Positions 10,243 through 28,997 are shown, numbered from the stretch's first letter. The stretch is DNA of 64,000 nucleotides from Synechococcales cyanobacterium CRU_2_2 (GCA_012034805.1 JAAUOP010000007.1:1003-65002), one strand, 5' to 3'. The notes: generated from the letters alone by a model not told the origin. Made by a program: numbers and translations.

Positions 10243-10578
10243 AAAACTGATGTCTGAAGTCGAACAGTGTGATTGGGACAGTGTGATTAGAACGCTTACA
10301 TCTAGAAAGACACAGTCGCTGACAGAAAGATTCCGCAACAACCACCGAAGCAAAGGGACACCTAACCTCCAGGGAAGGGACTTGGGAACGAGCCGCAGCC
10401 TTGCGACCAGAGCTGCAACTGAATCTATGAGCTGACTTCACCCTACAATGTAACGAATTTTGTAGCTTTAGCACCATAGCCGTTTTACGCAAGCCAGGGT
10501 GTCAGGCATGAACCTTACGGCTCAAGGAGACGTGAATCCACTGGCATCTGAGCCTCCAATTTGGGCGATCGCACTCTG

Positions 10579-10598
10579 CTTGAACTTTGCAGTTCAAG
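10579..10598. promoter_or_regulatory. Perfect palindrome cttgaact-ttgc-agttcaag, followed by a 20-bp tandem repeat (10604-10643)
   Basis: Read directly. Lies in the DUF1997/MarR divergent intergenic region. The palindrome is a possible MarR-type operator. Confidence 0.25.
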
Positions 10599-10832
10599 TT
10601 TTCGGGTCAGCGGCTTTGGCTTTGGGTCAGCGGCTTTGGGTCGCGGGTGAGCCATCTCGGTGAGCTCAAGATCCAGATCCACTCGCTAAACCCAAGGAGG
10701 GGGTCAAAGTCCCCATCCAATGGAGGCCTGAGCCCCCTCATCCCGCTGCCCCTGGTGGAAACTCACGACCAGTCTGATAAATTACTGGCGTTGCCCCTAG
10801 GGATAACAATCATCATTTCGGGGTTCAGTGCT

Positions 10833-11339: not shown

Positions 11340-11419
11340 AGGTTTAGCATCCGTATCGGCACTCATATCACTAAACTAGGTGGAGTGCTCACCTGAGCTT
11401 TGCCCTCCACGGTTGTCCC

Positions 11420-12703: not shown

Positions 12704-12712
12704 GGAGGTTTT

Positions 12713-14155
12713 ATGGCGGTCTTGAGCGAGGTGGTAGCCGATGCGCGACATTGGTGGATTCCCTTGGATCCGGAGGTCGTTCAGCGCAGCTGGCAGCACA
12801 GCCAGCGGCACAGCCAACCGGGGCGATGTTGGGATGACTACCTGGGCCGATTGTGTTTGGTTGGTCTGGCGGAGGGTTTGGCAGAATTGGAGGCGTTGGG
12901 GCTGAGCAAAATTCAACCTGGATTATCGCCAAGCCTGTCGGTTTGGACTGCCGTTTGGGAGGGAGTTGGGGGCTGCGTGCTGCGGGTTATGCCGGAGATG
13001 GTGATAGCAGAAGGTGTCACGGCTGAGGGTGTCACGGCGGAACGGGTCACGGGAAATGACAGAACGACAGACGAAATCCGGTTGGTAGTAATTCCAGGGG
13101 ATGAGATTGACGCGGAAGCCTTAGTGGTGCCCCAGGAATGGGTGGATGTGCCGGATTGGCGGGGTCACTATTATTTGGCGGTTCAGCTTTGTGGCGAGGC
13201 CGAGGCCGCCGAGGTAGGGGACGAAGAATGTGAGCCCTACGGTTTGAGAGTCTGGGGCTATGCAAGTCATCGTCAATTAAAGGAAAGGGGCGATTATGAC
13301 CCCCAGACGCGCAATTATGTTCTATCACGGCCAGACCTACAGGAGGATCTGACAGCCTTGAGTGTGACGCTGCGCCATTGCGACACCCAGGGAACTCAAG
13401 CCGTAGTGGAACCCTTAGCTGTGGTGTCAGCGGTGCAACGGGAAAATTTGCTCGAGCGCCTAGGGGATCCGGCCTTGGCATTTCCTCGGTTAGCGGTTCC
13501 ATTTGCGCTCTGGGGTGCTTTGATTCAGGATGAGGACTGGCGTAAACGGTTGTATCAGCGACGTTGTCAGGGCTGGGTGGGCCAAGTGGATGCTCAGGTG
13601 ACGCGGTTGAGTCAGTGGCTGGAGGGACAGTTTGAGCAGGGGTGGCGATCGCTCACGGATTTGCTCGGCCCAGGGACAGCATTTGCACCTCAGTTGCGCA
13701 GTGGGATGGTTGATTCGAGGGAGATTGGCCAGAGCGATCTCACCTCGGGCTTCCCGCTAAAACGCGCGAAGTCCATTATCCTGGGCGGAATTTCTGGTGA
13801 AATGACTGACGAAAGCGCCGATGATGTATCCAGAGTGATATTACTCGTTTCAGTTGTTCCCACATCAATTCAATCAGACTCAGTCTTGCAGGTGCAGGTT
13901 CAACTTCATCCTCTTTGCGGACAACAATTGCCCCCAAGGGTGCGACTCGTCTTACACGATCCAGAGCAGGTCATGGATCTACAAGCGATTGAGAGCGGGG
14001 CGGCGGATACCTATCTACAGCTCACGCCCCTCACCGGCAGGGTAGGGGAAACCTTCCAAGTGCGAATTGAGTACCCAGTCTCTAGTCAAACTCACCCCAG
14101 CCAGGAGCAAGATGCCGCAGCCCCTTGGACGGTCACTGAATTATTCCGGCTGTAA
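12713..14155 (+). CDS. DUF1822-like protein
   Basis: RBS gaggagg 6 nt upstream. The segment LVVIPGDEIDAEALVVPQEWVDVPDWRGHYYLAVQL...LRVWGYASHRQLK matches my recollection of the DUF1822 core. The stop overlaps the next ATG (TAATG). Confidence 0.6.
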   Translation: MAVLSEVVADARHWWIPLDPEVVQRSWQHSQRHSQPGRCWDDYLGRLCLVGLAEGLAELEALGLSKIQPGLSPSLSVWTAVWEGVGGCVLRVMPEMVIAEGVTAEGVTAERVTGNDRTTDEIRLVVIPGDEIDAEALVVPQEWVDVPDWRGHYYLAVQLCGEAEAAEVGDEECEPYGLRVWGYASHRQLKERGDYDPQTRNYVLSRPDLQEDLTALSVTLRHCDTQGTQAVVEPLAVVSAVQRENLLERLGDPALAFPRLAVPFALWGALIQDEDWRKRLYQRRCQGWVGQVDAQVTRLSQWLEGQFEQGWRSLTDLLGPGTAFAPQLRSGMVDSREIGQSDLTSGFPLKRAKSIILGGISGEMTDESADDVSRVILLVSVVPTSIQSDSVLQVQVQLHPLCGQQLPPRVRLVLHDPEQVMDLQAIESGAADTYLQLTPLTGRVGETFQVRIEYPVSSQTHPSQEQDAAAPWTVTELFRL

Positions 14156-16615
14156 TGGACAGGCCTATGATGGACAGCGCTTGGACGGCTCCGATACAAA
14201 CCGAAAAACAGGTCATTCTTTCCCTCGCTGGGGGGACGTTAGAGCAAGGCTTTCCAGCAGTGACGATGCAACTGAGTTCGGATCAGCCCCCGACCCAACG
14301 GCTGAAGGTAGTGGGTTCGCTCTCTCCAGCCCCCCATTTGCATCAGCTGTACCACGACTGGCGAGCTCACTATCTAGCCCTCCAGGATCGGCTCAGAATT
14401 CAGCTCGTGGCTGATCACAGCCCCAATCAGGTCTCGCGAGAACGGTTCGAACACCTGTCTGAGCGATTCGGACAGGCGTTAAATCAATGGTTGAGTCTGC
14501 CAGGATTTCATCGGATTGATCAGCAACTGCGGCTATATCTCAATCCCTCAGATCCCATTCGTCTCATTTTGGAAACCGATTGTCCACACACGCGACGGTT
14601 GCCTTGGCATTTATGGCTGTTTTTCCACGACTATCCCCAGGCTGAATTTGCCCTCGGCAGTCTCAACTACCGCCCCACTCAGGCCCCAGGTCTAGCTGCT
14701 CGCTCCAGTTCTATTCGCTCCGGTTCTATTCGCTCCGGTTCCGTGCGAGTCTTGGCAATTTTAGGAACTTCCGTCGGCATTGACGTAGAACGCGATCGCG
14801 CCCTCCTCACCCAACTCCCCCAGACGAGCTCCAATTACTGGTAGAGCCCTCGCGATCGCAACTCCACGCTGCCCTCTGGTCGGATCTAGGGTGGGATATT
14901 CTCTTCTTTGCGGGCCATAGCCAGAGCCAAGCCGGAGATAACAGCGGCCAGATTGCGATTAATGATCGCGAATCGTTGACGATTGAACAGTTGGAATATG
15001 CGCTGGGAGCGGCGATCGTCCGAGGTCTACAACTGGCCATTTTCAACTCCTGTGACGGTCTTGGCCTAGCCCGAGGCTTGGCAAATTTGAATCTTCCCCA
15101 GCTGGTGGTCATGCGAGAGCCGGTACCCGATCGCGTGGCACAAACCTTTCTGACCCATTTTTTGCAAGCGTTCTCCTCCGGGCGCTCCTTCTATGGTGCT
15201 GTGCGAGAAGCGAGGGAGAAACTTCAGGTCCTGGAAGATCAATTTCTGTGCGCGTCTTGGCTACCGGTGATTTATCAGAATCCAGCGGCGATTCCACCCA
15301 GTTGGCAAAGCTTAGCCAGTACTTCGGAGCTAGCCCTAAGCACGAATTCCCGACCTCGGACGATCGCCGCCTTGAAGTTGCACTCGGCTTTAATGCGGGG
15401 AGCGATCGCCGCGATCGTCATCCTAGGCTTACGTTACCTGGGCCTGTTACAGCCCTTTGAACTGTTAGCTTACGATCTCTTGCTCCGCCAACGCCCCGCT
15501 GAAACCACGGATCCGCGCATTTTAGTCGTGGAGGTAACTGAAGAGGACACCAACCGCTATGGCTATCCCCTAGAAGACAAACTTTTGGCTCAGTTGCTTC
15601 AAAAACTTTATCAATCCCAGCCCCGTGCGGTCGGGTTGGATATGCATCGGGCCCAGCCTCGAGGAGAAGGACGCGCCGAATTTTTAGAACAGTTTCAACA
15701 GCATCCGAGTCTGAGTACGGTTTGCTGGGGAAATCAGAATGATCAGAACTTTGCCACCCCGCCTGAATTCGATGCCGTTCAGCAAACCGAACAATTGGCC
15801 TTCAGCGATCTGTTGCCAGACCTCGCACCGTTTGCTTGGCTTTCCTCAGGAACTGTGCGTCGCCAGCTGCTTTCCGTCGATCCAAACCTAGGAGAACTCT
15901 CGGCCTGTACTGCGGTTCAGGGGCTCAGTCTAAGGTTGGCTCAAGTGTTTCTGAGCGCTGAACAGCGAACGATTCGTGTGGACGGGCAAAGACAACTGGG
16001 GTTTTGGATCAAAACGACCTTCTACCAAAGCCTGCCCCGACGAGTTGGAGCCTACCAACACCTAGATGGGCTGAGCAGTCAGATCTTGATCAACTACCGC
16101 TCAGCGCAACCCGGACAACGCGTGAACCTCGAGCAGGTATTGTTGGAGCAACTGCCACCGGAGATGGTGCGCGATCGCATTGTCCTCATCGGCACCACAG
16201 CCCCCGTGGGCGGAGATATCAAGCAAACACCTTTGGGTGAAATGCCAGGCGTTTGGGTTCATGCCCATCAGCTCAGTCAGTTGCTCAGTGCCGTTCTCGA
16301 CCAGCGCCCGCTCCTGGGGACGTTGCCCCAGTGGAAGGATTTCCAGTGGGGAGATGGGCTATGGGTAATGGTTTGGACATTCCTCGGGAGTGGCCTGGGC
16401 TGGGGTTTGAGCTGTGGCCCGACACAGCATTTACGACGCGTCCAGTCGTTGATTTGGGGAACTGGGCTGGGGGGGTCGTGGTGTTGTATGGCATGAGTTT
16501 GGGGGCGATCGCCAGGGCCTTTGGTTGCCCCTGGTTCCCTCTGTTCTCGGTTGGGGGGTGGGTTATGCCGCTAGCCTTCGTCCTAGTTTTCGTTCCGGTT
16601 TTCGTTCCGGTTTAG
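14155..16615 (+). pseudogene. CHAT-like (caspase-fold) domain fused to a membrane CHASE2 sensor domain; reading frame broken twice at homopolymers
   Basis: Candidate His/Cys dyad ILFFAGHS and LAIFNSCDG. TM helix AIAAIVILGL, then the CHASE2 signature LQPFELLAYDLLLRQRP...ILVVEVTEED...AVGLDMH, then C-terminal TM helices. Frame 1 to 3 at C5 (14817-14821). Frame 3 to 2 at G7 (16469-16475). Confidence 0.75.
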
Positions 16616-16648
16616 TCACTCCAGAAATTCACCATCCATAGGTTTGCC

Positions 16649-17409
16649 ATGAATACGACAATTCTCCCTCTCGTCAAGCACACCCCTCTGGTCAGAATTC
16701 TGAAGGGTTTAGCACTATGGACTCTAGCCTGTGGTTTTGGGACTCAGTTGATGCAACCAGCCGTTGCTCAATCAACTGTACAGCCAGCTGAGCGAAGAAC
16801 TCATCAGATTAGCCAGTCTAGACCCGCTCGATCGCGACCCTCTACCCCCAAACCACCCCGCAGTCAGCGACCCAACCAAACCCGAGCCGGGGGCTCACTG
16901 AGTGAATCCTGTTCGCGTTCTCAGCAAGTTCTGTCTGCCCTGGTTCCGACTCAAAACCCAGTCACCACTCGCAAATCCCAACCCACCGTTTGGGTTTATG
17001 TACCCTACACACCCGCTGAGATTCAACAGGCAGAGTTTGTGATCAATGTTGGGATTGCGGAAAAGAACGGTTGTATCGACAAGCGATCGCCCTTCCTCCA
17101 ACCCCTGGATTTGTCGGCCTGACCTTGCCCGCTGAAGTGAGCCTAAAACCCGGTATTCCCTATCGCTGGTACTTGACGCTGCAATGCGTCGGGCCTAAAG
17201 CTACGGCCCAGTTCAGTGTGGATGCAGGCATTCAGGTGGTTGGATCGGAACAGGGGGAGGGGACGATCGCTTGGTATGACGAGGTGGAGGCGATCGCCCA
17301 GCAGTTGCAGTTGCAGCCGGAGAATCGAGAGGTGCGCGATCGGTGGCGTCAGCGCTTGGCAGAACTCGGGCTGGCAGAACTTGCCAATCAGCCGTTACAG
17401 AAGCTTTAG
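16649..17409 (+). pseudogene. DUF928-like exported protein, one frameshift near 17061-17073
   Basis: Signal peptide. QPTVWVYVPYTPAEIQQAEFVINV... continues in frame 1 as LYRQAIALPPTPGFVGLTLPAEVSLKPGIPYRWYLTLQC, the pattern I associate with DUF928. Confidence 0.6.
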
Positions 17410-17450: not shown

Positions 17451-17495
17451 CTATTACAACCCATTCTATTACAACCCATTCTATTACAACCAATT
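17451..17495. repeat. 15-bp tandem repeat x3 (ctattacaacc[c/a]att) spanning the stop codon of the TPR-CHAT gene
   Basis: Read directly. The third copy contains the last codons plus the stop (NWL*) of the minus-strand gene that ends at 17484. Confidence 0.9.
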
Positions 17496-20171
17496 GCCCA
17501 CCAGCACATAGGTTGCCCACACATGGGGCGTTGTATAGCCCTCCTCCAGCAACGATAACTGCGCCGATCGCAGGGCCTCCGCCCGACTGATTGCTGGATT
17601 TTGCAACGCCTCATAAAACCGTAGCATCAAAGCCGTATTCGGCACATCCTGAGCCTCCCATAGCGTCGAAACCACACTCTGAGCTCCTGCCTGCACTGCC
17701 AACCCCGCCATGCCCAAAACAGCTCGGTTATCTCCTTGAGCCGTAGAACAGGCACTCAAAACTAATAGCTCCACCGGACTCGGCGTACCTGTTCTGGCAT
17801 CGCGCCCCCGCAGCAAAGGGCCTAGTTCTTGCCCTTTGAGCAACCCTTCGTAGGCCACCACAAAGGTTTCTTCTGGATCTGAGCTAAAAACACCGTGGGT
17901 TTTGAGATGAATCGCTGAAAACGATTGGCTAGAGAGCGACTGGGTTAAATTGGCTTTGGTGAACAACTCATTGACCAAGGGCTGGGGTGTGGCAAAGAGA
18001 TTGCGAATGCCTTCGAGTTCTGGTGCGAGGTTGGCGATCGCCGGAAAACTGCGCCCTTCTAGCTCCTGGGGCCGACCCACACCACCCAAAAATACGGAGA
18101 GATTGCGCGATCGCCGTTTGGGATCAAACAATTGCAGCCGAGGCGACAAAGCCACCGCATAGCGGCTAATGAGATAATCCTCCCCGTCGTAGAGCGCGGC
18201 CATCGGAATATTGCGCAAATCTCCATCCAAGACAAACACTAAGGTTTCAACCGACTGGTCTGTGAGGGCAGACTCAAAGGGTTTGATCAACCAGTCATGA
18301 ACCGTGGTGAGGCCTGCGATCGCGTCCGGCGTCCGTCCGGGTGTGGCTAAGTCGTATCGAAGTTGTTGCAGTTGTACCTGCATATCTTTGCGTCCTAGAC
18401 GCACTTCAGTATATTGCAACGGCTGCTGGCCAGGGGGCTCTAGGATAATGACGAGGCGATCGTCCAGAATGAGCGGGTAAAGCTTGGCCGCTTTCGGATC
18501 AACGGCCACGGCCCCGAGAGCCACCGTTTGCGCCAGCTTACAACCGAGGAAATTTTCGAGTTCTGCCAGTTGCAAGGCATCAACCTGTTGAATGGCCTGT
18601 TTTAGGACAGTTTGACTGGGATTGCCGTCCTTGGCGATCGATTCGTCCAACAGCAGCGCAACTAACTCTCGGTAAACGGGCTCTACATCGTCACGGAATG
18701 AAAACTGTAATTCTGGATTACTGGAGAGTAAATCACCGCGAATAGCCGCCAAACTCGTGACCGCATCGCGATAGAGGGCGATCGCCCCTGGCAAATCCTG
18801 CTGCTGGCGCAACAGTCGTCCCAGTTGCCACTCCCAACGATAACGCAAACTTGAAAGTTGTAAGGGATCCAAGGTCAGAAGCGCCTGTTCTGTCCAATAT
18901 TGGGCCTGGGCCCATGCGCCTTGCTGCTCTAACCAGGCTCCCCGCTGACCCAAGGCATGGGCGATCGCGGCAGGATCCGCAAGGGCCTTGGCCTGTCGTA
19001 GGGCAGATTGTATCAAGGGCTCTGGATTTTGTTTGAGCTGGATCAGGCTTTCAGCCAGGTTCAGCTGGGCTTGGACAGTGGCGCGGCTGGCTGGCTGGCT
19101 GGCGAGGTAGAGCGGTAGTTGAGTCTGGAACTGGGAGGCGATCGCGATCGCCTCTGGGGCGTCCATCTCGACCAAAAGGGCCAAACGATTTAATCGACTT
19201 TGCCATTGCAACGGATGGTCTTGGGACAGGGTTTCGGATTGCCGATAAAACTGCAATGCGCTCTGTTCAGCAGCTTTAGCCTCTGCCTGTTTCCCCAAAG
19301 CTTGCCATCGGGTGCGCAAGACCTGGGCACCATTGCCCAGCTCTAGGTATGTTTTGGCTTGTTGATCGATCGCCTCTGGCGGAATCAGGCCGAGGCTTTC
19401 CTGCAGAATCTCTTGCGATCGCTGGGGTTTCCCGATCTGTCGCAAGACAGTGCCGAACAACTGCAGACCCGTGGCCCTTACGTTGGCACTCCAGGGAACT
19501 CCCTTTTGCGATGCTTGGAGTTGCTGATAGCTTTCCTCCAACTGTTCCTCGGCTTGGCCATTGAAGCCCAATGCCATCAGGGCTTGGGCATGATTAAGGC
19601 GCGTTAGCAGCTGACCCTCTGAATCGCCCGCCTCCCCATAAAAAGCCTGGGCAGACTGCCAGGCTTGCTGGGCCTGCTCTATTTTTCCCTGTGACCAATA
19701 CAATCGCCCCTGGACATTGAGAATTCGGGCTTGAATGGATGGCTTGCTGAGGGCAAGAGACGCGTTTGCAGAATCAGTTGTGACTAGGGTTTTGGCTTGT
19801 TTGAGATGAACCTCAGATTGATTCCATTGCCCGAGCTGCTGTTCGGCCAGGGCCAGATAGCTCAGGAGTAGGGCTTGGTGTTGCGGGTGAAGTTTTTGCT
19901 GTTCGAGGGCTGTTTGCCAAAGGGCGATCGCCGCTTGGAAATTTCCCTGTCCGTAGCGTTGAAGACCTTGCTCCCATACTTGTGTTGGGAATCGCTCACT
20001 GGGCGATCGTTCACTGGGCGATCGTTCACTGGGCGATCGTTCACTGGGTAACGGCTCACTCACTGGCTGGGCCCATGCAGGCAATCCGCTGAAGCCGTCA
20101 GCAATGCAAAGTATCAGGCCTAGGGAGCCAGCAGTCATTCGAGTCAGGCGAGACCAGCAACAAACAGCCAT
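17484..20171 (-). CDS. Secreted TPR-repeat CHAT-domain (caspase-like) protein
   Basis: Signal peptide ...GLPAWAQP, (SERSP)x4, long TPR-like helical repeats, and a C-terminal CHAT domain with AIHLKTHG and LLVLSACSTAQGD. Confidence 0.85.
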   Translation of the reverse strand: MAVCCWSRLTRMTAGSLGLILCIADGFSGLPAWAQPVSEPLPSERSPSERSPSERSPSERFPTQVWEQGLQRYGQGNFQAAIALWQTALEQQKLHPQHQALLLSYLALAEQQLGQWNQSEVHLKQAKTLVTTDSANASLALSKPSIQARILNVQGRLYWSQGKIEQAQQAWQSAQAFYGEAGDSEGQLLTRLNHAQALMALGFNGQAEEQLEESYQQLQASQKGVPWSANVRATGLQLFGTVLRQIGKPQRSQEILQESLGLIPPEAIDQQAKTYLELGNGAQVLRTRWQALGKQAEAKAAEQSALQFYRQSETLSQDHPLQWQSRLNRLALLVEMDAPEAIAIASQFQTQLPLYLASQPASRATVQAQLNLAESLIQLKQNPEPLIQSALRQAKALADPAAIAHALGQRGAWLEQQGAWAQAQYWTEQALLTLDPLQLSSLRYRWEWQLGRLLRQQQDLPGAIALYRDAVTSLAAIRGDLLSSNPELQFSFRDDVEPVYRELVALLLDESIAKDGNPSQTVLKQAIQQVDALQLAELENFLGCKLAQTVALGAVAVDPKAAKLYPLILDDRLVIILEPPGQQPLQYTEVRLGRKDMQVQLQQLRYDLATPGRTPDAIAGLTTVHDWLIKPFESALTDQSVETLVFVLDGDLRNIPMAALYDGEDYLISRYAVALSPRLQLFDPKRRSRNLSVFLGGVGRPQELEGRSFPAIANLAPELEGIRNLFATPQPLVNELFTKANLTQSLSSQSFSAIHLKTHGVFSSDPEETFVVAYEGLLKGQELGPLLRGRDARTGTPSPVELLVLSACSTAQGDNRAVLGMAGLAVQAGAQSVVSTLWEAQDVPNTALMLRFYEALQNPAISRAEALRSAQLSLLEEGYTTPHVWATYVLVGNWL

Positions 20172-20235
20172 CGGTCATATTCCGTGAGACAACACGCGTA
20201 TGCTCAATCTGTGTTCTCAGCTTAGCATTCTTAGT

Positions 20236-20259
20236 TTTTGTCCGAAATTTTGTCCGAAA
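20236..20259. promoter_or_regulatory. Perfect 12-bp tandem repeat (ttttgtccgaaa x2) upstream of the TPR-CHAT gene
   Basis: Read directly. Lies 65-88 bp upstream of the start at 20171, in the 96-bp gap after the FHA-like gene. Confidence 0.3.
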
Positions 20260-20267
20260 GTGTAAGT

Positions 20268-23200
20268 CTAATCCAACAGCTTGCAATGTTTGACCTGCGT
20301 GGAGGTTGTGGACTTGGCTGCAAGGATGATTTGTCCCTGGGCGTTGACGTCCCAGTGTGTGGCTTCAGCAAGCGGGTTGGGCACGGGAGTCCTGCTGGAG
20401 TGGACTTGTACTTGTGAAGCATTGAGCCCAGGGGGCAGTCGGAGATCGTCGAGGATGCTGGTACTGGTGAGGGGGGCGCTGGGGTTGGGAGGGAGGCCAC
20501 CCCGTCCGGTGACGAAAAACTCACCTTGGCTTGTTTGTCCTGTGGTGTTGGTCGTTTGGCAACCCTGGCTGGGTTGGGGAATATTGGTAGTGCTGGGGAG
20601 TTGAATCGCACCTTGGGCCGGATTGACATTCAGTCCTACTAAATTGAGGGTACCGTTGCTGCCAAACTCTGAGCTCGCGCTGATATCATTGGTCGCTTGT
20701 TGCCGTAATTGATTAAACGTTTTGCCCTTGTCGTTCAGCGTGAAATTGAGGATGCTGTTAGCATTGATGGTGACATTACCACCCCGACCCGTGAAAGCAT
20801 TGGCAATGATATCATTGTTCTCACCAGGCAAGGCCATAACAAAGGGAGCATTAATGGTGATATTGCCACCATCTCCACCGGACTGAGCCGTGCCTGCAGT
20901 GGCAGAAATCAGGCTACTTTGGTGCATGAGCAAGACATCTCTCACTCCCAAGTCAATGTAGCCACCCTGTCCAAAATCTGTGGAGGCTAGAAGTTGGCCC
21001 TCGCTATCCAAGGTTAATTGATTGGATTGAACGGAGAGGGTGCCAGCCGCTCCAGTTGCTGGTCGGGTTCCTATGAGAATACCGGTGATATTTTTGAGGG
21101 TGTTTGTAGCCAGATTAAGATCAGATGCACTCCCGGAGGCAACTGTTATCGTAGCGCGATCGCGCACCTGAACAATGGGCGATCGCACAATTAAATCGCC
21201 AGCCTTCCCTTGATCCGTCGTCTGAGCGTATAAACCACTGGCAAAGCCATCTGGATCGGTACCTTGCACTAGCAATTTTTCTGAGGCTACGACACTCAAC
21301 GTCCCGCCTTGACCTGTGGCAAATGTAGATGCTGAGATTGCGCCCCATTTTGGATTGTAAGTTGAGGTGTGGTGACGCTCAAATCGCCCGCATTACCGAT
21401 GCCAAATGTATCGGTTGAAAATGCTGTTGGCGTTCGGCCTGTGGGGGACAGAATCGATCCATCCAGACTAATCGACTCGGCGGCATTGACCGTCAAGTTA
21501 CCCCCCTGCCCCCTGCCAAATGCTGAAGTAGATAATATGCCTCCTGTCTGCAGAATGACCTGACCCGCGTTCACCGTTAAATCTCCAGCTTTACTGGGAC
21601 TAAAACTAGATGTTGCTAAACGGCTGGGAGACTTGCCATCGGGTGAGATGCCGCTAATATCGACGACACTTGCTGTAATGTTCACATTGCCGCCAAGCCC
21701 TGCTGGAGAGTCAATTGCATTAACATCGCCCGTTGTCGAGGCAATGATAGCGCCATCCCGCAATTGTAAGTGTCCCGCTTCGATCGCTACATTCCCGCCA
21801 TTCCCGGCACCAAGTGTATTAGCGACAATCTGAGACGATTGGCCTGTAGCCGATGTACCTGCCAGGGTTAGACTATCTGTAGCGACAATCGTAATGTCAC
21901 CGCCACGACCCGCCCCTACGGTACCGGCCACAATGTTGGTACCATTCTTGAGGCTGATGGTAGGAGCGCTGAGGCGAATCTCACCCGCCTGCCCTGCGCC
22001 TGCTGTACCACTATTGATCTCGCTATCCGTGAGGGCGATCGCTCCTGCTTGAATGGTGATCGCCCCGGCTTGCCCCGTTCCCGCTGTACCCGTAAGTAAA
22101 CGGCTGTTACTGGAAGCAAACGTGCCCTCATTCGTGATTTGGATATTGCCTCCATTCGCATTGCCAAAGGTCGCAGCATTCAGACTCGAGGTTGTAATAT
22201 TGCCGCTTGGGGCGAACAGTTGAATCGATCCAGCTCCTCCAGCCGCAGAGTCAGTCCGAACAAGTCCTTGGGTGGTGATATCACCGCTGGTACTGGTCAA
22301 GCGAATATCGCCCCCCTGACCCAAGCCAAAACTCCCTGAATCAATGGTGTCTTGCGTAGTAATATCTTGTGCTGCTGTGATAGCGATTGCTCCACCATTC
22401 CCGAACTGGGAGGTTGTCGTTAATTGACCCGTAATATTGACCCTGCCCGTTTCACTAGTCAAGCGAACCGTTCCTCCTGATGCCGATGAAAAGGAGATGG
22501 CTGTGAGAAATCCGGCCACAATATCGCTATATCCTGTGAGCGATATATTTCCGGGTATCAATCCATTTACATCAATGAGAGATGTCTCAATCCCCCCACT
22601 CCGACTGAGCAGTCGAATCGAACCACTAGGGGGGCCACCGAGGCCAAAGGACCGTATTGCAAAGATGCGAACATTATCCTTCGCCAAAACTGTGACATCC
22701 CCACCCCTGCCTGAGTCACCAAAAGGCCCCCGTGCTGCTATGGCACCGATATTAGCACCGCCGCGTGAATCAATCACCACAGTCCCTGCATTACCGGGAA
22801 AGCCATCTACATCAATCTCTCCCTCGACCTGAATCGAGCCACTGAGGGCAGAGTTTGGGGCGTACTGATTCGTTAGAAAAACGAGGCGATCGCTAATATC
22901 ACCGCCGTTGGCTGCTCCAATACTCCCGATCACAATGTCGGTGCTGGTTGGGGTACCTGTACTTGTGGGGGGTGGCGTAAAGCCAAGGGGAGATCCTGTC
23001 AAACTGGGGTTGCCAAAGGCAGTTGTGCCTGCCCGGATATCTAGGGTGGGACGAGCACTTCCATCGATCGCCAAGGTTGTTCCATCGGAGAGAGTCACGG
23101 TTTCCTGAAGCGACGTTGCTGGCGTACCCGCTCCTGTGAGAGTGACACGATCGGAAATCGTGACACTGCCCCCTGCCAGAATATGCAGAGATGTGCCCGT

Positions 23201-24175
23201 ATAGCTCGCAAAACTGACATCGCCGCTGGCACGAAGTACCGGGTCGTGGGGACTGACTAAACTTCCCAAAGCGCCATCCAGTTGCTCAATCCGCAGATTA
23301 CCGCCCGCTTGCCCATGGATATCTCCCAGAACTGGATTTGCGGATCGCCAGATCATATCCCTACCGGACCATAGGCCACTTTGGGGATGATTCAGGGCAG
23401 TCATTTCGACTTGGCGATCGCCTTGAATCAAAAGCTGTCCCTGTGCCGCGACCTGCAAGGGCTGCGTCAGGCTATCGCGGAGTTGCACAGTATCCGAAGC
23501 ATACAAAACTAAATCGCGTCCAGCTTGTATTTGTCCCCGCCCATCAATGCGGCTTGCCGCTAGGGTTAAGTTCTGGGGAGACTGAAGTTGCGCTCCCTCA
23601 ATTACCAAAGCTCCCGAGGCGTTCCCCCACTGCAATCCTGGTGTAACGTTCAAGGTTAGCAATGGTGGTGCTTGGGGATTTGTGGCACTGAATTTGCTGC
23701 CATTGCCAAACGTCAATGCATTAGCTGTGGTTGCCAGGAAGGAACCACCAATATCCAGCGCAGCATGGGAACCGAAGAGAATTCCATTGGGATTGAGCAG
23801 AAACAAACTGGCGCTGCCATTGGCCTTAATCAGCCCATCAATGCTGGAGGGATTACTACCTGTAACTCGAGTAAAAATCGCTTGAATTTGTGAGTCGTTA
23901 TCAAACCACGCTTGTCCCCCTGCAGGAATCGAGAATTCCTTAAAACTGTGGAACAGATTGGAACCTCGGCTCGTGCCGCCATTGATGGTGCAACCTCCTG
24001 TGCAGGGGGCGATCGCAGAGCCATTCACCTGTGTTGACAAGGTTCCATCTCCGGTGATTTGTGCCAGAGCTACAGCTGGTGAGGTGGCTAAAATAACACC
24101 ACCAAGTATCCCTAATCCGCCGCCTTTCGTAGACTGAAACCTTTGTTTTTGAAGCATATCCAGCATCCAGGTCAA
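20268..24175 (-). pseudogene. Giant TPS-domain (filamentous-haemagglutinin N-terminal domain) beta-helical exoprotein, copy 1; one frameshift near 21335-21345
   Basis: TPS motifs NLFHSFKEFSIPAGG and FLLNPNGILFG. G/T/S-rich beta-helix repeats. ORFs 21296..24175 and 20268..21299 join as ...LTIQNGAQ/ISASTFATGQGGTLSVVASEKL once one base is restored. Confidence 0.8.
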
Positions 24176-24265
24176 TAATATTACTGAGTGGGTGAAGGTA
24201 TTTTACTACTAGTAATAACGCGCGAAAGTATATGACTTCTGGCAGCCACAGCCAACCTAAGTTTT

Positions 24266-24298
24266 GTAAGGTAGTAGGGTGAAGCCCTACTACCTTAC
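24266..24298 (-). other. 14-bp stem-loop between the RTX gene and FHA-like gene 1
   Basis: gtaaggtagtaggg-tgaag-ccctactaccttac. No clear U-tract, so it may be a processing or weak termination signal. Confidence 0.35.
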
Positions 24299-24341
24299 TT
24301 ATGCTAACTGCTAACTCAACTCAACCTAGCATCACAGCAAG

Positions 24342-25235
24342 CTAGACAAAGATGAAGTCACGGGACATACTCACGTTTGTGGTGTCCTGGATAACAGCAA
24401 TCAAATCGCTATTGGAATAGACAAGGGTGTCTGTTGCAGCGCTACCGGCCAAGTTGCCGGTGCCGAGAGAATAGCTGGAGTTACCAGTAACCTCCACAAA
24501 GTCACTCGTCCAGTCCCAGTCTGCGATCGTGGCATAGCCAAAGCCCTGATAGGAAACACCCCAACCGCCACCCAGGATAAACGTGTCAGAGCCGGCACCA
24601 CCATAGAGTGTGTCGTATTCCACGCCTGACGTTGCATAACCATCAATGCGGTCATTGCCATCCCCACCGACCAAGGTGTCATCGCCACTCATGCCCAGCA
24701 GGGTATCGTTACCACCACCTCCGTACAAATAATCATGACCTGTTCCGCCATTGAGGTAATCATTGCCCTCGTAGCCACTCAGTGTGTCGCTCCCGTCACC
24801 GCCGTAAAGCGTGTCGTCTCCGTAGCCACCGAGTAGGTAATCATTGCCAGCTCCACCATCCAGGTAATCGGGTGTAAAGGCAAAGCTGCTGACCAATCCA
24901 CCATCAATGTGGTCATCGCCATTGCCACCATACAGACTGTCACTGCCATATCCGCCATAGAGTGTGTCATTACCTGAACCACCCTCTAGAATGTCGGCAC
25001 CATCTCCCCCATCCAAGTAGTCATTGCCTGACTCTCCTTGAAGCAGGTCATTACCGTAACCGCCGTAGATTGTGTCGTTGCCAGAGAAGCCTTTGAGCGT
25101 GTCGTCACCACTCAACCCATCAATGTAATCATTGCCGGAGCCTCCCCAGATAAAATCGTTGCCGGAGGTACCCGTTGCGACGAGGTCATCACTACCGAAG
25201 AAGTTGATATTGGAACCGGTTTGGTAGGTTGTCAT
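24342..25235 (-). CDS. RTX-type (haemolysin-type calcium-binding repeat) protein
   Basis: More than 15 consecutive nonapeptides of the form GGxGxDxLx (GGSGNDYIDGLSGDDTLKGFSGNDTIYGGYGNDLLQ...). 297 aa. Confidence 0.85.
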   Translation of the reverse strand: MTTYQTGSNINFFGSDDLVATGTSGNDFIWGGSGNDYIDGLSGDDTLKGFSGNDTIYGGYGNDLLQGESGNDYLDGGDGADILEGGSGNDTLYGGYGSDSLYGGNGDDHIDGGLVSSFAFTPDYLDGGAGNDYLLGGYGDDTLYGGDGSDTLSGYEGNDYLNGGTGHDYLYGGGGNDTLLGMSGDDTLVGGDGNDRIDGYATSGVEYDTLYGGAGSDTFILGGGWGVSYQGFGYATIADWDWTSDFVEVTGNSSYSLGTGNLAGSAATDTLVYSNSDLIAVIQDTTNVSMSRDFIFV

Positions 25236-25402
25236 TGCTTTATCCCTGCTGTGAATAATGTGTGTTTGAAAGGAAGTTTCGCTTGGAAAACTCGATGTTC
25301 CTTGCTTGATTTCCCTTCATGTCTCCTTGTACGAAGGAGCAAGAAGCGTTATTCACCAGGTAGAAGACAAGACCAATGAAAATCAGCCTGAATACAGCCG
25401 TG

Positions 25403-25828
25403 CTAAAGGGGTTTGACCGCAGCCAATCCAATTTCCTGTCCATGGGATAGCTCCAGGGTATGGCCATCTGGGTCCCGCAAGAAAGCCCAATACCCAATCG
25501 GATAGCCAGAATCTTGGGGAGGCTGGAGCAGTACCCCATCCTGTTTTGCCCGCTCGCACAGCAGATCCATTTGCTCTCGGCTCTCACATCCAACGCCGAG
25601 GTGGGCAAGGGGAGATAACACAGGATGAACTGTAGCGGTTTGAATCAAAACAATCGCAAAGGGACGAGTGCGATCACAAAGCCAGACCACCCCCACCCCC
25701 GTTTCGCCGTCGATGCGGCGATGAATAACCTGCATAGACGCATAGGTCGCATAAAACTCGATGCTGCTGTCAATATCTGCGACCGGGAGCGCGATGTGAG
25801 TCAGGCCAAGATCGATGTTAGCGGACAT
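25403..25828 (-). CDS. VOC/glyoxalase-family protein
   Basis: LTHIALPVADIDSSIEFY...AFLRDPDGHTLELSHG is typical of the VOC fold. Starts 25 nt after the true stop of FHA-like gene 2. Confidence 0.7.
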   Translation of the reverse strand: MSANIDLGLTHIALPVADIDSSIEFYATYASMQVIHRRIDGETGVGVVWLCDRTRPFAIVLIQTATVHPVLSPLAHLGVGCESREQMDLLCERAKQDGVLLQPPQDSGYPIGYWAFLRDPDGHTLELSHGQEIGLAAVKPL

Positions 25829-25852
25829 AAAGACCTCAAGTTCAAGATCGGT

Positions 25853-28800
25853 TTAGTTCAAAAGTTTGCAACGATTTACACCTGGAGCGGTCATGGGTTG
25901 GGCAACAAGGGTAACTTGCCCCTGAGCGTTCATTTTCCAGTGTGTGGCCTCAGCGAGCACAGAGAATGCAGGCACAACAGAAGAATCAGCGACTGAAGCA
26001 TTGAGTCCAGGAGGAATCCGCAAGTCGTCGAGGATGGTAGCGCTGTTGAGGGGGTCGCTGGGGCTAGGGGGGAGCCGCCGCGTCCAGTGGTGAAAAATTC
26101 GGCTGGGGTGGTTGGGCCGTTGCTACGAGTCGTCTCGCAGCCTTGGCGGGGTTGGGGGGTATCGGTGGTGCTCGGGAGCTGTCCAACCCCTTGAGCCGGA
26201 TCCACATTGAGCCCAGTTAAATTGAGGACACCATCGCTACCGAACTCTGAGCTGGCACTGATGTCATTGCTAGGTTGATTTCGCAACTGATCAAAGGTTT
26301 TCCCCTTGTCGTTGACGGTGAAGTTGAGGATATCATTTGCATTAATCGTAATATTGCCACCGGTGCCGCTGAAGGCATTGGCAATGATGTCGTTATTCTC
26401 GCCAGGAAGGGAGATGACAAAGGGAGACGCGATCGCAATATTGCCGCCGTTGCCTGCGCCTTGGGCACGGCCAGCCGTAGCGCTGAGCAGACTGCCATTG
26501 CGCATGATGAGGGCTTGGTCGAGGGCCAAGGTAATGTCGCCACCATTGGCGGTATTGGAATCCGCAACGATTTCACCGCTGTCAAGGAGGAGGCGAGGGG
26601 GAGTGCCGAGGTCACCGATGATGATGTTGCCAGCAGCTCCGGTTGCGGTGGAACGAACGTAGATGCCACTGTTGGGGCTAATGGGCGTGATCGGAGGAAC
26701 ACGGCTACCAAATTGGGCGCGTCGAGCGGCATAAGCGGGGTCACGACCCACGATGCGAATGTTATCTGTGACGTTGATAGCGACTGTCCCCGCCGAGCCG
26801 CTGCTATCACTCGTGGAGAGGATTTGGCCACCGTTGAGGATTGACAATTCCCCAAGCTTGAGCGTGATATCGCCGCCAGCTTGGCTGTTGATAGTCCGAG
26901 AATCCATCACAGCTCCATTGCTGATTTGAAGCTGCGCGGCCGTGAGCAAGATGTCGCCCCCTGCACCTGTCCCTGTGCTGGTGCCGATGCCTGTCCCCGC
27001 CTCCGGTGTACCATTGCCCGCGAAGATTGTGCTAGAGCGCCCGTCTAGAGGGTTGATACCATCTAGCAGAATGTCACGACCGGCTACAATCCTTATATTC
27101 CCTGCATTCCCGTCGCCACGGGTATTGGACAAGAGTGCAGCGCCATCACGCACTTCTAGTCTACCGGCTGTGGTAATCTCGACATCGCCGCCTTTACCTT
27201 TACCGCCAAATCCGACACGGCTGGCAGCGGAGCTAACAGATTCGCCATTGGGGGTAGTGCCTTGAAACAGAACGCGATCGCGGGCGTTGATGGCGACATT
27301 TCCCGCATTCCCCTCGCTAAACGTCGTGGCTGTTAGTCGAGCCCCATCCCGCACCTCTAGACTACCGGTATTAATCTCAATGTTGCCACCTGCCCCCTTG
27401 GCTCTAAATTCCACACTGCTAGCGGCAGCGCTGACAAATCCACTGGCACTACTGCCCTGAAACAGAACGCGGCCAGTTTCTCCAGACTCCGCAGAATCGC
27501 GGGTGTTGATGACAATGTTCCCAGCATCCCCCTCACCGCGGGTATTGGCCAAGAGTTGGGCCCCATCGCGCATCTCCAGGCTGCCAGTATTAATTTCAAT
27601 ATTCCCGCCCTTGCCCTTAGCCCTCACCTCAACGGTGCTAAGAGCAGCTGAAGCACCCTGGAACAGAACGCGACCGGTTTTACCAGGCTGTGTAGAGTTG
27701 AGTGTGTTAATAAGCACGCTTCCCGCATCGCCTGTCCCAAACGTACTCGCACTTAACTGTCCTCCATCTCGCACCACGACCTGTTGTGCCCGCACCTCAA
27801 CATCACCACCCCGCCCCGTTGCCCCAGGTCCGATCTGATTTGCAACCTGACTAAGGTTGCCTGCCACTGTGACCATACTCGTGGCATCGAGTCGTACCGT
27901 TCCCGCTTGGCTACTCGGTGTCCCCAACCCTCGTAAAATTCCCCCGCTTAACACGCTTGCCCCACTGACCTCAATATCCCGCGCCGTAATTGAAATATCT
28001 CCACCACCTACCCCCGCAACAAAGACCCCGGCCCCATTCTCAAACCTGACATCTCCCCGCGCTAGCCCACCGACAAATCCCAGCCCTCCATCCGATGACA
28101 ACAGCACCGTTTCCGGCTCTGCGGTGGGCCCCGCCAAGCTCCGAAGCATCGCCCCAAGTTCAACCCGTCCACCCAACGCGACCAAACGCCCCCGATTAAC
28201 CACCACCTCACCGCCTAATAATCGCAAATTCTGGGTATCAGAAACGCGCAAAACGCCTTCATTGACCGAAATTCCTGGGATCGGACGCGACGTGATCCCA
28301 AAACCACTCGGATCCCCCACAATTCGCAATAAGGGTTGGGCGTTACCTGGGTTTATCGCATCAAAGCGACTCCCGTCAGGCCACACGATCGCATCCAGTG
28401 TCGTCGCCGTAAAATCCCCCCGAGTCGTGCCCCCAATATCAAGCTGGGCATTTGGCCCAAACACAATCCCAGCTGGATTAATCAAAAAGAAATTGACCGC
28501 TGGACTCTCTGTAAAAATCAGCCCATCAATCGATGAAACCGATCCACCCACCACTCGCGCCAAAATGTTACGAATTATTGCTGAGCTTTGAAATCCAACC
28601 TGCTCACCTGTTGCCAAATTAAATCGCCCAAGACTATGGAACAAATTTCTACCAACAGTCGTTCCATCCGCCTGCTGAATCAGATAGTTTGGGCCATTTC
28701 CAAGGATCCTTGCGGATCCTAAGCTGCTATCCAGCGTGATGGTTTGTGCCACCACAGAAGATTCCAAGAATACATGTGTCCCCAGCCATATCCCAAGAAT

Positions 28801-28854
28801 CCATCTGTGTAACACTTGTGAATGACAACAAACTCGAGGACACCCCAGTATCAT
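25853..28854 (-). pseudogene. Giant TPS-domain beta-helical exoprotein, copy 2; C-terminal frameshift at a G5 run (26050-26054)
   Basis: TPS motifs NLFHSLGRFNL and FFLINPAGIVFG. After ...GRGGSPLAPATP, the paralog-matching sequence LNSATILDDLRIPPGLNAS...AEATHWKMNAQGQVTLVA...RCKLLN* continues in another frame to a stop at 25853-25855. Confidence 0.8.
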
Positions 28855-28997
28855 CGTTGTTCTCCTGAGTGATGGATCGAGAAAATAGGATCTCGCAACA
28901 CCTATTTCCGTTTATTCTACAGAACTGAGCTTCTAATGGCATCTAAGGAAGACAGAAGTATCAACCCGCAAAAATCAACAAGCTTTAATCCATGCTC

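What the first reader, a model, noticed from the sequence alone, without database searches (positions are those of the whole stretch)
20268..28854. Two paralogous TpsA-like giants share a roughly 110-aa Cys-containing C-terminal module, and no TpsB partner is present
Both proteins begin with a TPS secretion domain (NLFHS...F, NP[NA]G[IV]). They then diverge through beta-helical repeats and re-converge over the last roughly 170 residues. Shared motifs there are PGENNDIIANAF.G.GGN[IV]TINAN.ILNFT[LV]NDKGKTF[ND]QLR, ISASSEFGS[ND]G.LNL.GLNV[ND]PAQG, QGC.TT, EFF.TGRGG, ILDDLR[LI]PPGLNAS, AEATHW..NAQGQ and CKLL[DN]*.

Classical two-partner secretion needs an adjacent Omp85-type TpsB, and none is encoded in this 64-kb window. 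The conserved tail is not a known toxin or pretoxin motif that I recognise. It could be an anchoring, sorting or CHAT-processing module.
Basis: seen in the sequence. Interest (0 to 1): 0.6.

Follow-up and report, generated by a model that had tools for sequence, protein, structure and literature searches.

The report
Exoprotein tail that docks a protease
Two large secreted fibre proteins of a stromatolite cyanobacterium end in the same conserved two-cysteine tail, which thousands of cyanobacterial relatives also carry, and which is predicted to bind the exported caspase-like protease encoded next door, probably so that the fibres can be held on or cut from the cell surface.

Summary
Genes A (25856-28854, minus) and B (20271-24175, minus) both start with a TPS secretion domain. 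They are about 35% identical through the beta-helix and about 70% identical over the last ~215 residues.

Each gene is split by a 1-nt deletion in this record. Two independent read assemblies carry the missing base in A; B is unresolved.

The tail is not private to this pair:
- It is the standard C-terminus of cyanobacterial TpsA-like proteins, with 7455 cluster representatives, always at the extreme C-terminus.
- It has two near-invariant Cys about 98 residues apart and an F..TGRGGLPPNP motif.
- No Pfam, NCBIfam or PDB match was found.

No TpsB lies on the contig, but two lie elsewhere in this 89%-complete genome. Orphan tpsA genes are the family norm: 18 tails against 3 TpsB in a complete relative.

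The usual neighbour is instead a ~900-aa TPR-CHAT protease:
- It lies within 10 kb in 43 of 62 loci.
- It has a signal-peptide-like N-terminus in 46/46 and an invariant His/Cys dyad in 47/47.
- A complex model puts the GRGGLPPNP...LDDLRLPPGL stretch in its TPR groove (score 0.73, best control 0.00).

Best reading: a periplasmic disulfide anchor plus a protease-docking site, working like CdrA/LapG or HMW1. I found no publication on it. This scan had already noted the gene module in other genomes.

The parts
25856..28854 (-). tpsA-like gene A. It gives 1000 aa when read through the 1-nt gap at 26072-26074. It has a signal-like N-terminus, a TPS domain, a beta-helix and the shared tail.
   Evidence: Contigs of runs X1 and X2 both have an extra base behind 26073 that restores the frame.
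27991..28740 (-). TPS secretion domain of A (residues 39-288).
   Evidence: PF05860, 116.6 bits, E 2.3e-33. TIGR01901 also matches.
25856..26499 (-). Shared tail of A (about residues 786-1000). It comprises the last beta-helix rungs plus the two-Cys module, and spans two reading frames in this record.
20271..24175 (-). tpsA-like gene B. It gives 1302 aa when read through a 1-nt gap at about 21336-21346, which lies in a G4/A4 run.
   Evidence: The read assemblies break and vary at 21342-21348.
23288..24064 (-). TPS secretion domain of B (residues 38-296).
   Evidence: PF05860, 183.5 bits, E 8.6e-54.
20271..20912 (-). Shared tail of B (P0003 residues 130-343).
   Evidence: In the AF2 model residues 1-100 are beta-helix rungs with pLDDT about 75-85.
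20271..20636 (-). Two-Cys C-terminal module of B (P0003 222-343). It contains Cys247, F..TGRGGLPPNP, a variable spacer, the EATHW..N..G.I.L hairpin and Cys339, and ends 4 residues after the last Cys.
   Evidence: Alignment A2. 7455 representatives carry it, always C-terminal. All 95 long members examined have exactly 2 Cys in their last 130 residues.
20424..20507 (-). Stretch GRGGLPPNPSAPLTSTSILDDLRLPPGL (P0003 265-292), predicted to lie in the TPR groove of the neighbouring protease.
   Evidence: complex prediction: score 0.73 in 3 of 3 runs, best control 0.00. The interface residues are listed.
17484..20171 (-). Exported TPR-CHAT protease gene (895 aa), immediately downstream of B. The signal peptide is about residues 1-34 (..GLPAWA|QP), the TPR solenoid about 60-545 and the CHAT domain 621-893. 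The catalytic residues are His759 and Cys808.
   Evidence: PF12770, 170.5 bits. Sequence. His and Cys are invariant in 47/47 homologues that sit next to tail-bearing genes. All 46 have a hydrophobic N-terminus.
24342..25235 (-). RTX (calcium-binding nonapeptide repeat) protein gene between A and B.
   Evidence: PF00353, 172 bits. The same arrangement is found in the closest relative's locus L025.
25403..25828 (-). Glyoxalase-fold protein gene between A and B.
   Evidence: PF00903. Also present next to the tpsA gene in L025.
11375..17409 (+). Convergent companion module. It holds a sigma-70/ECF-like factor (11375-12703), DUF1822 (12704-14155), CHAT-CHASE2 (14140-16615, broken by indels) and DUF928 (16616-17409, broken).
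   Evidence: Pfam hits, ORFs. The same module flanks tpsA-TPR-CHAT in Allocoleopsis, Nostoc and a close relative. DUF928 is present in 24 and CHASE2 in 22 of 62 loci.

Best explanation
A and B are two-partner-secretion (type Vb) beta-helical exoproteins. Their shared tail is the standard C-terminal end-piece of the cyanobacterial branch of this family.

Proposed mechanism:
1. Each protein crosses the inner membrane by Sec. It is then threaded N-terminus first through a TpsB channel encoded elsewhere in the genome. A few TpsB proteins serve many TpsA proteins.
2. The last ~120 residues carry two near-invariant cysteines about 98 residues apart. They stay on the periplasmic side as a disulfide-closed stopper that holds the fibre on the cell, as in HMW1, HxuA and CdrA.
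3. Inside that loop, the conserved linear motif F..TGRGGLPPNP(..ILDDLR.PPGL) is the docking site for the TPR solenoid of the co-encoded, Sec-exported TPR-CHAT cysteine protease.
4. The protease then cuts the tail, plausibly after the conserved Arg/Lys of GRGG. The cut releases, matures or removes the fibre.

A and B keep nearly the same tail because both must fit the single TPR-CHAT of this locus.

Shown here:
- the domain architecture;
- that the tail is family-wide and always C-terminal;
- the Cys and GRGG conservation;
- the gene linkage to the exported TPR-CHAT;
- TpsB genes present elsewhere in the genome.

Inferred only:
- periplasmic retention and the disulfide;
- binding, which rests on a model;
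- cleavage and its site;
- which TpsB is used.
For: Architecture:
- Both genes have a TPS domain.
- The tail is about 70% identical between A and B, without raised synonymous-site identity.

The tail is family-wide:
- More than 4551 hits, all TPS proteins from cyanobacteria.
- The two-Cys module alone finds 7455 representatives, and the match always ends within about 13 residues of the C-terminus.
- All 95 long members have exactly two Cys in the last 130 residues.
- GRGG occurs in 244 of 263 members and GKGG in 7. Median Cys-Cys spacing is 98, and the last Cys lies a median 4 residues from the end.

TpsB acting in trans:
- Two ShlB+POTRA genes lie on other contigs.
- All 21 genomes with the tail also have ShlB.
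- The complete relative G002 has 18 tails and 3 ShlB, with only one tail adjacent to a ShlB.
- The TPS review records TpsB proteins that serve several TpsA proteins (PMC5422565).

Protease link:
- The order tpsA then TPR-CHAT recurs in three distant cyanobacteria.
- About 11 of 18 tails in G002 sit in a cluster with a ~900-aa CHAT gene, although the genome has only 50 CHAT hits in 6.1 Mb.
- A CHAT gene lies within 10 kb in 43 of 62 loci from different species and within 5 kb downstream in 34 of 62. All 9 loci with an adjacent TpsB also have CHAT.
- All 46 adjacent TPR-CHAT proteins have a signal-like N-terminus, and His and Cys are invariant in 47/47.
- The complex model scores 0.73 in three runs against a best control of 0.00. 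That mark was reached by 51 of 78 solved complexes and 2 of 108 mismatched pairs. The interface is the TPR region (residues 61-544) with tail residues 265-292.

Precedents:
- The CHAT protease HetF cuts after Arg (PMC9457339).
- CdrA is cut off the cell by the periplasmic protease LapG (PMC4694147).
- HMW1 and HxuA have a C-terminal disulfide anchor (PMC5422565).
Against: - There is no experimental datum for any member of the family.
- The complex model is only a model. The tail's own pLDDT is about 40, and the controls were folded proteins, not proline-rich disordered peptides.
- No confident contact reaches the CHAT active site, so the model supports docking, not cleavage at GRGG.
- Predicted interface residues of the TPR are only marginally more conserved than the rest (0.66 against 0.60, p = 0.07).
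- GRGG lies inside the presumed disulfide loop, so a cut there alone would not separate the chains.
- 19 of 62 loci have no CHAT gene within 10 kb, and 17 have none of the five companion gene types searched for. In this genome A and the C302 paralogue have no CHAT gene of their own.
- The AF2 model of the tail is poor between residues 100 and 170, so no fold supports a 'globular stopper'.
- The signal-peptide call rests on a hydrophobicity heuristic and on reading the sequence, not on a dedicated predictor.
Confidence: 0.5

Rival explanations
1. The tail is only the structural C-terminal cap of the beta-helix, folded outside the cell with a stabilising disulfide. The neighbouring TPR-CHAT protease acts on something else, or is merely co-regulated.
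For: The first ~95 tail residues model as ordinary beta-helix rungs, and the EATHW..G.I.L hairpin is modelled confidently. Also, 19 of 62 loci have no CHAT gene within 10 kb.
Against: A cap does not explain a near-invariant linear motif inside a segment that is otherwise variable in length and poorly modelled. It also does not explain the strong gene linkage to an exported protease, or the complex model that places exactly that motif in the TPR groove.
Confidence: 0.2
2. The tail is a prodomain of the FhaB type. It stays in the periplasm and delays or controls folding of the distal part of the fibre. It is then degraded stepwise, with TPR-CHAT as the initiating protease. On this view it is a timing or quality-control device rather than an anchor.
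For: The evidence is the same as for the main reading: the module is C-terminal, the protease is exported, and docking is predicted. FhaB's prodomain remains intracellular and affects the mature C-terminal domain (Noel et al. 2012, cited in PMC5422565).
Against: FhaB's prodomain is about 1200 residues, whereas this module is about 120. The two conserved Cys fit the short HMW1/HxuA-type anchor better. No sequence similarity to FhaB's prodomain was found, and no Pfam family is shared.
Confidence: 0.15
3. The two genes are decaying pseudogenes, and the tail similarity is a leftover of a duplication with no present function in this organism.
For: Both genes are frameshifted in the record. Read assemblies show a variant identical to the window at B's break, and none of the variants shown restores the frame.
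Against: The missing base in A is present in two independent assemblies. The record also carries single-base indels in several neighbouring genes and differs from both assemblies at an intergenic site, 24262, which points to consensus errors. Apart from one break each, both frames are open over 1000-1300 codons. Synonymous sites in the tail are near saturation while the protein is 70% conserved, so the tail has been under purifying selection.
Confidence: 0.1
4. The tail is a polymorphic toxin or effector domain delivered to neighbouring cells, as in CdiA-CT.
For: The proteins have a TpsA architecture with a distinct C-terminal module.
Against: The module is conserved across thousands of proteins instead of being polymorphic. 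No pretoxin or toxin family matches. No small immunity-like gene follows; the next gene is the 895-aa protease. About half of the module is low-complexity and poorly modelled.
Confidence: 0.02

Closest known systems
CdrA/CdrB with the periplasmic protease LapG (Pseudomonas aeruginosa; PMC4694147)
   Same: A TpsA-type adhesin is kept on the cell through its C-terminal end. It is released when a dedicated periplasmic cysteine protease cuts near that end. The protease is under the control of an inner-membrane sensor.
   Different: LapG is a transglutaminase-like cysteine protease that cuts at a di-alanine site. Here the protease is a TPR-CHAT of the caspase-like clan CD, and the conserved motif is GRGGLPPNP. 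The companions are DUF928, CHAT-CHASE2, DUF1822 and a sigma factor, not LapD and c-di-GMP. The protease gene sits next to the tpsA gene. Nothing has been tested experimentally.
HMW1/HMW1B and HxuA C-terminal disulfide anchor (Haemophilus influenzae; Buscher et al. 2006, as reviewed in PMC5422565)
   Same: Two cysteines at the extreme C-terminus of a TpsA protein are thought to form a loop that cannot pass the TpsB pore and so tethers the protein.
   Different: The Haemophilus anchors are short (about 20 to 66 residues) and have no known protease-docking motif. Here the Cys are about 98 residues apart, with a conserved linear motif and a variable spacer between them. No sequence similarity was detected.
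FhaB/FhaC of Bordetella with its maturation proteases (reviewed in PMC5422565)
   Same: The C-terminal part of a TpsA protein stays inside the outer membrane and is removed by proteolysis.
   Different: The FhaB prodomain is about ten times longer and unrelated in sequence, and its proteases belong to other families.
EACC2-caspase-CHASE2 systems with ECF sigma and DUF1822 (Kaur et al. 2021, PMC8195603)
   Same: The convergent neighbour module in this window (11375-16615) is this system.
   Different: In the passages of that paper that mention CHASE2 or DUF1822, no TPS exoprotein, TPR-CHAT or DUF928 partner is described. The words hemagglutinin, two-partner, TPS and FhaB do not occur in its main text.

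Membership tests
TpsA substrates of two-partner (type Vb) secretion | N-terminal TPS secretion domain with the NPNL/NPNGI-type motifs | tested here: met
   PF05860 scores 116.6 bits (A) and 183.5 bits (B) against a cut-off of 33.5. TIGR01901 also matches. NLFHS and NPAGI/NPNGI can be read in the sequences.
TpsA substrates of two-partner (type Vb) secretion | Sec signal peptide ahead of the TPS domain | tested here: inconclusive
   Hydrophobic N-terminal segments ending ..SSVVA|Q (A) and ..AVALA|Q (B) were read. No dedicated predictor was available.
TpsA substrates of two-partner (type Vb) secretion | A cognate Omp85-type TpsB transporter with POTRA domains, classically adjacent | tested here: inconclusive
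   None lies on contig C177. Two ShlB+POTRA_2 genes lie on C172 and C103. Adjacency is therefore not met, but presence in the genome is. Which one serves A and B could not be tested.
HMW1/HxuA-type C-terminal disulfide anchor | Two conserved cysteines at the extreme C-terminus | tested here: met
   Both Cys are conserved in at least 90% of alignment rows. All 95 long members have exactly two Cys in the last 130 residues. The last Cys lies a median 4 residues from the end.
HMW1/HxuA-type C-terminal disulfide anchor | Periplasmic location of the C-terminus, with the disulfide required for tethering | not testable with these tools
   This needs fractionation, cysteine mutants and accessibility mapping.
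HMW1/HxuA-type C-terminal disulfide anchor | Sequence or fold homology to the Haemophilus anchors | tested here: not met
   The profile of the tail finds no PDB chain at E below 0.8. Foldseek gives nothing at E of 0.001 or better. No Pfam family matches. HxuA's anchor is not resolved in its crystal structure (PMC5422565), so the fold comparison is weak.
LapG-controlled adhesins (CdrA, LapA) | LapG-type di-alanine (TAAG-like) cleavage motif near the retained end | tested here: not met
   No TAAG is seen in the printed tail sequences. The conserved motif is TGRGGLPPNP.
LapG-controlled adhesins (CdrA, LapA) | Transglutaminase-like protease LapG with a LapD receptor | not tested
   The genome was not searched for LapG or LapD. 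The linked protease here is a CHAT-family enzyme.
CdiA-type polymorphic toxins | Pretoxin motif, followed by a variable C-terminal toxin and an immunity gene | tested here: not met
   The tail is conserved in thousands of proteins. No toxin or pretoxin family matches. The downstream gene is an 895-aa protease.
CHAT (caspase-like, clan CD) peptidases, for the neighbouring gene | CHAT domain with a catalytic His and Cys | tested here: met
   PF12770 scores 170.5 bits. His759 and Cys808 are invariant in 47/47 homologues that sit next to tail-bearing genes.

The most novel reading that the evidence does not exclude
The tail may be the input of a trans-envelope proteolytic signalling chain.

1. The exported TPR-CHAT docks on the GRGGLPPNP motif of a surface fibre and cuts it when the fibre is engaged, strained or unoccupied.
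2. The freed periplasmic tail fragment, alone or with the secreted DUF928 protein, is the long-sought ligand of the adjacent CHASE2 sensor.
3. The sensor's cytoplasmic caspase-like domain then activates the neighbouring ECF-type sigma factor through DUF1822.

The cell would thereby read the state of its surface fibres and adjust transcription.
Probability: 0.15. Interest if true: 0.85.

Novelty: new variant of a known kind. Interest (0 to 1): 0.55.

Why it matters
- Filamentous cyanobacteria carry many TPS beta-helix exoproteins per genome (18 tail matches in the complete relative G002) and tens of CHAT proteases. Almost none of them has a known role.
- If the tail is a periplasmic anchor that an exported caspase-like protease recognises, this gives a concrete, testable substrate and docking motif for a large clade of bacterial CHAT proteases.
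- It would also give a release switch for cyanobacterial surface fibres, which bears on mat, biofilm and stromatolite cohesion.
- It offers a handle on the neighbouring CHASE2 sensors, whose ligands are unknown.
- It explains a common annotation puzzle: 'orphan' tpsA genes without a tpsB, named 'S-layer family protein'.
- It defines a domain of about 120 residues, present in thousands of sequences, that has no Pfam model.

Tried and rejected
Searches that found nothing:
- Pfam on the tail gave only a sub-threshold DUF3602 hit at the GRGG motif (E 0.02, below cut-off), and NCBIfam on the mended proteins matched only the N-terminal TIGR01901 domain. I treat the DUF3602 hit as chance.
- A PDB profile search gave only TamB at E 0.88.
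- Foldseek of the AF2 model against the PDB gave nothing at E of 0.001 or better. The model is poor (pLDDT 66), so this is uninformative.
- The ESM Atlas search returned only cyanobacterial fragments of the same family, and the structural rows had TM below 0.3.

Ideas rejected or left unsupported:
- Gene conversion between A and B as the cause of the re-convergence is rejected, because third-position identity is only 0.5-0.6.
- Greater conservation of the predicted TPR interface residues is not significant (0.66 against 0.60, p = 0.07).
- The read data did not settle B's frameshift. Both assemblies break at the G-run, and the variants shown (same length, or one base shorter) do not restore the frame.

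Technical failures:
- The search for related loci with the short module alignment A2 failed because no stretch was conserved enough. I repeated it with A1.

Literature: five searches for a description of TPS with CHAT in cyanobacteria found none. The library holds open-access papers only.
Full report
**What is in the sequence**

The window is contig C177:1003-65002 of a 5.3-Mb, 332-contig genome that is 88.9% complete. The only public runs holding it are stromatolite metagenomes. Its relatives are cyanobacteria.

On the minus strand the genes run in this order:
- gene A, 28854 to 25856;
- a glyoxalase-fold gene, 25828-25403;
- an RTX-repeat gene, 25235-24342;
- gene B, 24175 to 20271;
- a TPR-CHAT gene, 20171-17484.

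A and B each start with a hydrophobic signal-like segment followed by a TPS secretion domain. PF05860 scores 116.6 and 183.5 bits against a cut-off of 33.5.

**Frameshifts in A and B**

Neither gene is a single open frame in this record.
- In A the frame changes at GGCGGC^TCCCCCC (26072-26074). The last 72 codons, which hold ILDDLRIPPGLNAS, AEATHW and CKLLN, lie in another frame.
- In B the 959-aa and 343-aa ORFs overlap at 21296-21392. The break lies in or beside a G4/A4 run at about 21336-21350.

Read through with X at the break, A is 1000 aa and B is 1302 aa.

I laid Logan contigs of two runs from different studies on 20200-28900.
- Both carry an extra G behind 26073 on the plus strand. This reads GGC GGC CTC CCC CCT, that is GRGG-L-PPS, which is exactly the intact reading.
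- Both also differ from the record by one base at the intergenic site 24262.
- At B's break both assemblies fragment. X1 shows three 50-nt variants: one equal to the window, one a base shorter, and one with four substitutions.

So A's frameshift is an error or minor allele of the record, and B's is unresolved. Neighbouring genes (CHAT-CHASE2, DUF928) are also split by single-base indels.

**The observation**

BLASTP of the two read-through proteins gives 39% identity over 757 columns. The last ~215 residues are far more alike.

In 60-column windows, amino-acid identity is 0.24-0.55 through the body (one window, with only 14 aligned columns, reaches 0.64). It is 0.77, 0.70 and 0.65 in the last three full windows. 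Third-codon identity at identical residues rises only to 0.50-0.59. The re-convergence therefore reflects constraint on the protein, not recent gene conversion.

**The tail is a family-wide module**

Searching B's last 215 residues finds more than 4551 proteins. All listed ones are cyanobacterial proteins with a TPS domain, or fragments of such proteins. Their sources name them 'S-layer family protein', 'filamentous hemagglutinin N-terminal domain-containing protein' or 'two-partner secretion domain-containing protein'.

An alignment of 59 tails (A1) gives two parts.
- About 95 residues of terminal beta-helix rungs: GGNITI..F..AVP.ENSDI.ANAF.G.GGN..I....SDITASS.FG..G.V. AF2 models these as strands with pLDDT of about 75-85.
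- A module of about 120 residues: DP..GL..LP...C-x(~15)-F..TGRGGLPPNP, a variable spacer, IVEA.GW..N..G.V.L.A, then C and the end (A2).

A profile of the second part alone, run against 1.84 billion representatives, finds 7455 proteins at E of 0.001 or better and 5489 at 1e-10 or better. In all 150 listed, the match ends within about 13 residues of the C-terminus.

Of the 95 listed proteins of 650 aa or more:
- 78 show N-terminal TPS motifs, and the other 17 look like N-terminally truncated beta-helix fragments;
- all 95 have exactly two Cys in the last 130 residues.

Over 263 members:
- GRGG occurs in 244 and GKGG in 7;
- Cys1 lies a median 15 residues before GRGG;
- the two Cys are a median 98 residues apart;
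- the last Cys lies a median 4 residues from the end.

No Pfam, NCBIfam or PDB sequence match covers the tail. Fold and Atlas searches gave nothing usable.

In this genome the tail also ends:
- an intact 1721-aa TPS protein on C302 (63% identical to B's tail);
- a TPS gene cut by the end of C195;
- in divergent form, TPS proteins on C282 and C80.

**The 'missing' TpsB**

No ShlB match lies on C177. Two ShlB+POTRA_2 genes lie on C172 and C103, against nine TPS-domain matches in the genome.

In 31 related genomes, 21 have the tail and all 21 have ShlB. The complete relative G002 has 18 tail matches and 3 ShlB matches, and only one tail is adjacent to a ShlB.

In 62 loci from different species with at least 4 kb of downstream sequence, only 9 have a TpsB within 5 kb.

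Orphan tpsA genes are thus the rule in this family. TpsB proteins that serve more than one TpsA are documented in other bacteria (PMC5422565). Use in trans here is an inference.

**The conserved neighbour is an exported TPR-CHAT protease**

In Allocoleopsis franciscana, Nostoc sphaeroides and a close relative of this organism, a TPR-CHAT gene of about 860-920 aa lies beside the tail-bearing tpsA. In the first two it follows immediately. In the close relative it lies upstream, with an RTX gene between. Each locus sits beside DUF928, CHAT-CHASE2 and, in two of the three, DUF1822, with no TpsB within 10 kb.

In G002 about 11 of 18 tails sit in such a cluster, although the genome has only 50 CHAT matches in 6.1 Mb.

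In the 62-locus sample:
- a CHAT gene lies within 10 kb in 43 loci, and starts within 5 kb downstream in 34;
- it follows immediately on the same strand in 18;
- all 9 loci with a TpsB also have a CHAT gene within about 3 kb of it (most often tpsA, then tpsB, then CHAT);
- DUF928 is present in 24 loci and CHASE2 in 22.

The window's TPR-CHAT begins ...MTAGSLGLILCIADGFSGLPAWA|QP. All 46 homologues next to tails have a strongly hydrophobic N-terminal segment. The catalytic His759 and Cys808 are invariant in 47/47.

**Does the protease meet the tail?**

I folded TPR-CHAT residues 36-895 with B's last 108 residues.
- The score was 0.73 in all three runs. The best of three controls scored 0.00.
- That mark was reached by 51 of 78 solved complexes and by 2 of 108 mismatched pairs.
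- The confident interface is the TPR solenoid (residues 61-544) with Cys247, G265-S274 and P276-L292 of the tail. This is GRGGLPPNPS..PLTSTSILDDLRLPPGL, the conserved linear motif.

Caveats:
- the tail's own pLDDT is about 40;
- the controls were folded proteins, not disordered proline-rich peptides;
- no confident contact reaches the active site;
- interface residues are not significantly more conserved than the rest (p = 0.07).

The model supports docking. It does not show binding, and it says nothing on cleavage.

**Mechanism proposed**

Established knowledge gives three precedents.
- HMW1 and HxuA are held on the cell by a small C-terminal periplasmic loop closed by a disulfide (Buscher et al. 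2006, as reviewed in PMC5422565).
- The TpsA adhesin CdrA is cut off the cell by the periplasmic cysteine protease LapG (PMC4694147).
- The cyanobacterial CHAT protease HetF cuts after Arg (PMC9457339).

I therefore read the tail as a periplasmic two-Cys stopper that also carries the docking motif for the locus's own exported TPR-CHAT. The protease would then release, mature or remove the fibre, possibly by cutting after the Arg/Lys of GRGG.

This also explains why A, B and the C302 paralogue keep near-identical tails. They share one protease, whereas the divergent C282 tail has its own TPR-CHAT, only 34% identical to the window's. That last point is anecdotal.

A difficulty is that GRGG lies inside the presumed disulfide loop, so a single cut there would not separate the chains.

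**Known or new**

Five searches of the open-access library found no description of TPS with CHAT in cyanobacteria. The paper that defined the neighbouring EACC2-caspase-CHASE2/ECF/DUF1822 system does not contain the words hemagglutinin, two-partner, TPS or FhaB.

Earlier AI notes of this scan describe the same TPS/TPR-CHAT/DUF928/CHASE2 module in several other genomes, and one of them gave me the CdrA/LapG lead. The gene module is therefore not new to this scan.

What this report adds:
- the anatomy and range of the tail;
- the finding that orphan status is the norm;
- the predicted docking of the tail motif in the TPR groove.

In kind it is a new variant of a known arrangement: a TpsA with a C-terminal periplasmic anchor and a dedicated periplasmic protease.

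**Verdict**

- Observation: confirmed, with corrections.
- First reading: partly supported.
- Best explanation: confidence about 0.5.
- Interest: 0.55.

Noticed in passing
window 24262 and 26073; also 14784-14844, 16241-16496 and 17020-17122: The record differs by single-base indels from two independent read assemblies at 24262 and 26073. Several neighbouring genes (CHAT-CHASE2, DUF928) are split into overlapping ORFs. The assembly seems to carry homopolymer-type consensus errors at roughly one per few kb.
   Followed up: partly
L018 (G000:C172) 5790-12393: A TpsB gene (660 aa; POTRA_2 + ShlB) is divergent from a gene with an N-terminal TPS domain and a C-terminal CHAT domain. In the record this gene is split into 265-aa and 1261-aa ORFs. 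It looks like a protease that is itself a two-partner-secretion cargo. It has no two-Cys tail.
   Followed up: partly
window about 20010-20070 (minus strand): Just after its signal peptide, the TPR-CHAT protein has four tandem pentapeptide repeats (SERSP SERSP SERSP SERFP).
   Followed up: no
L019 (G000:C282) 5837-10879: A short TpsA (729 aa) has a long QNNFQNN/LQNN low-complexity run and a divergent two-Cys tail (..C..SGRGGLPP..EASHW..C..). It is followed at once by its own exported TPR-CHAT (944 aa), which is 34% identical to the window's.
   Followed up: partly
L017 (G000:C302) 5520-10682: An intact 1721-aa paralogue has a Laminin_G_3 (concanavalin-like lectin) domain inserted in the beta-helix. 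Its tail is 63% identical to B's. No CHAT match lies within about 10 kb of it in the own-genome search.
   Followed up: partly
window 24342-25828 and L025 8744-14205: An RTX-repeat protein gene and a glyoxalase-fold gene accompany the tpsA genes both here and in the closest relative's locus. They may belong to the cassette in this lineage.
   Followed up: no
G000 genome-wide; G002: CHAT domains are very numerous: at least 20 matches in this incomplete genome and 50 in the complete relative.
   Followed up: no
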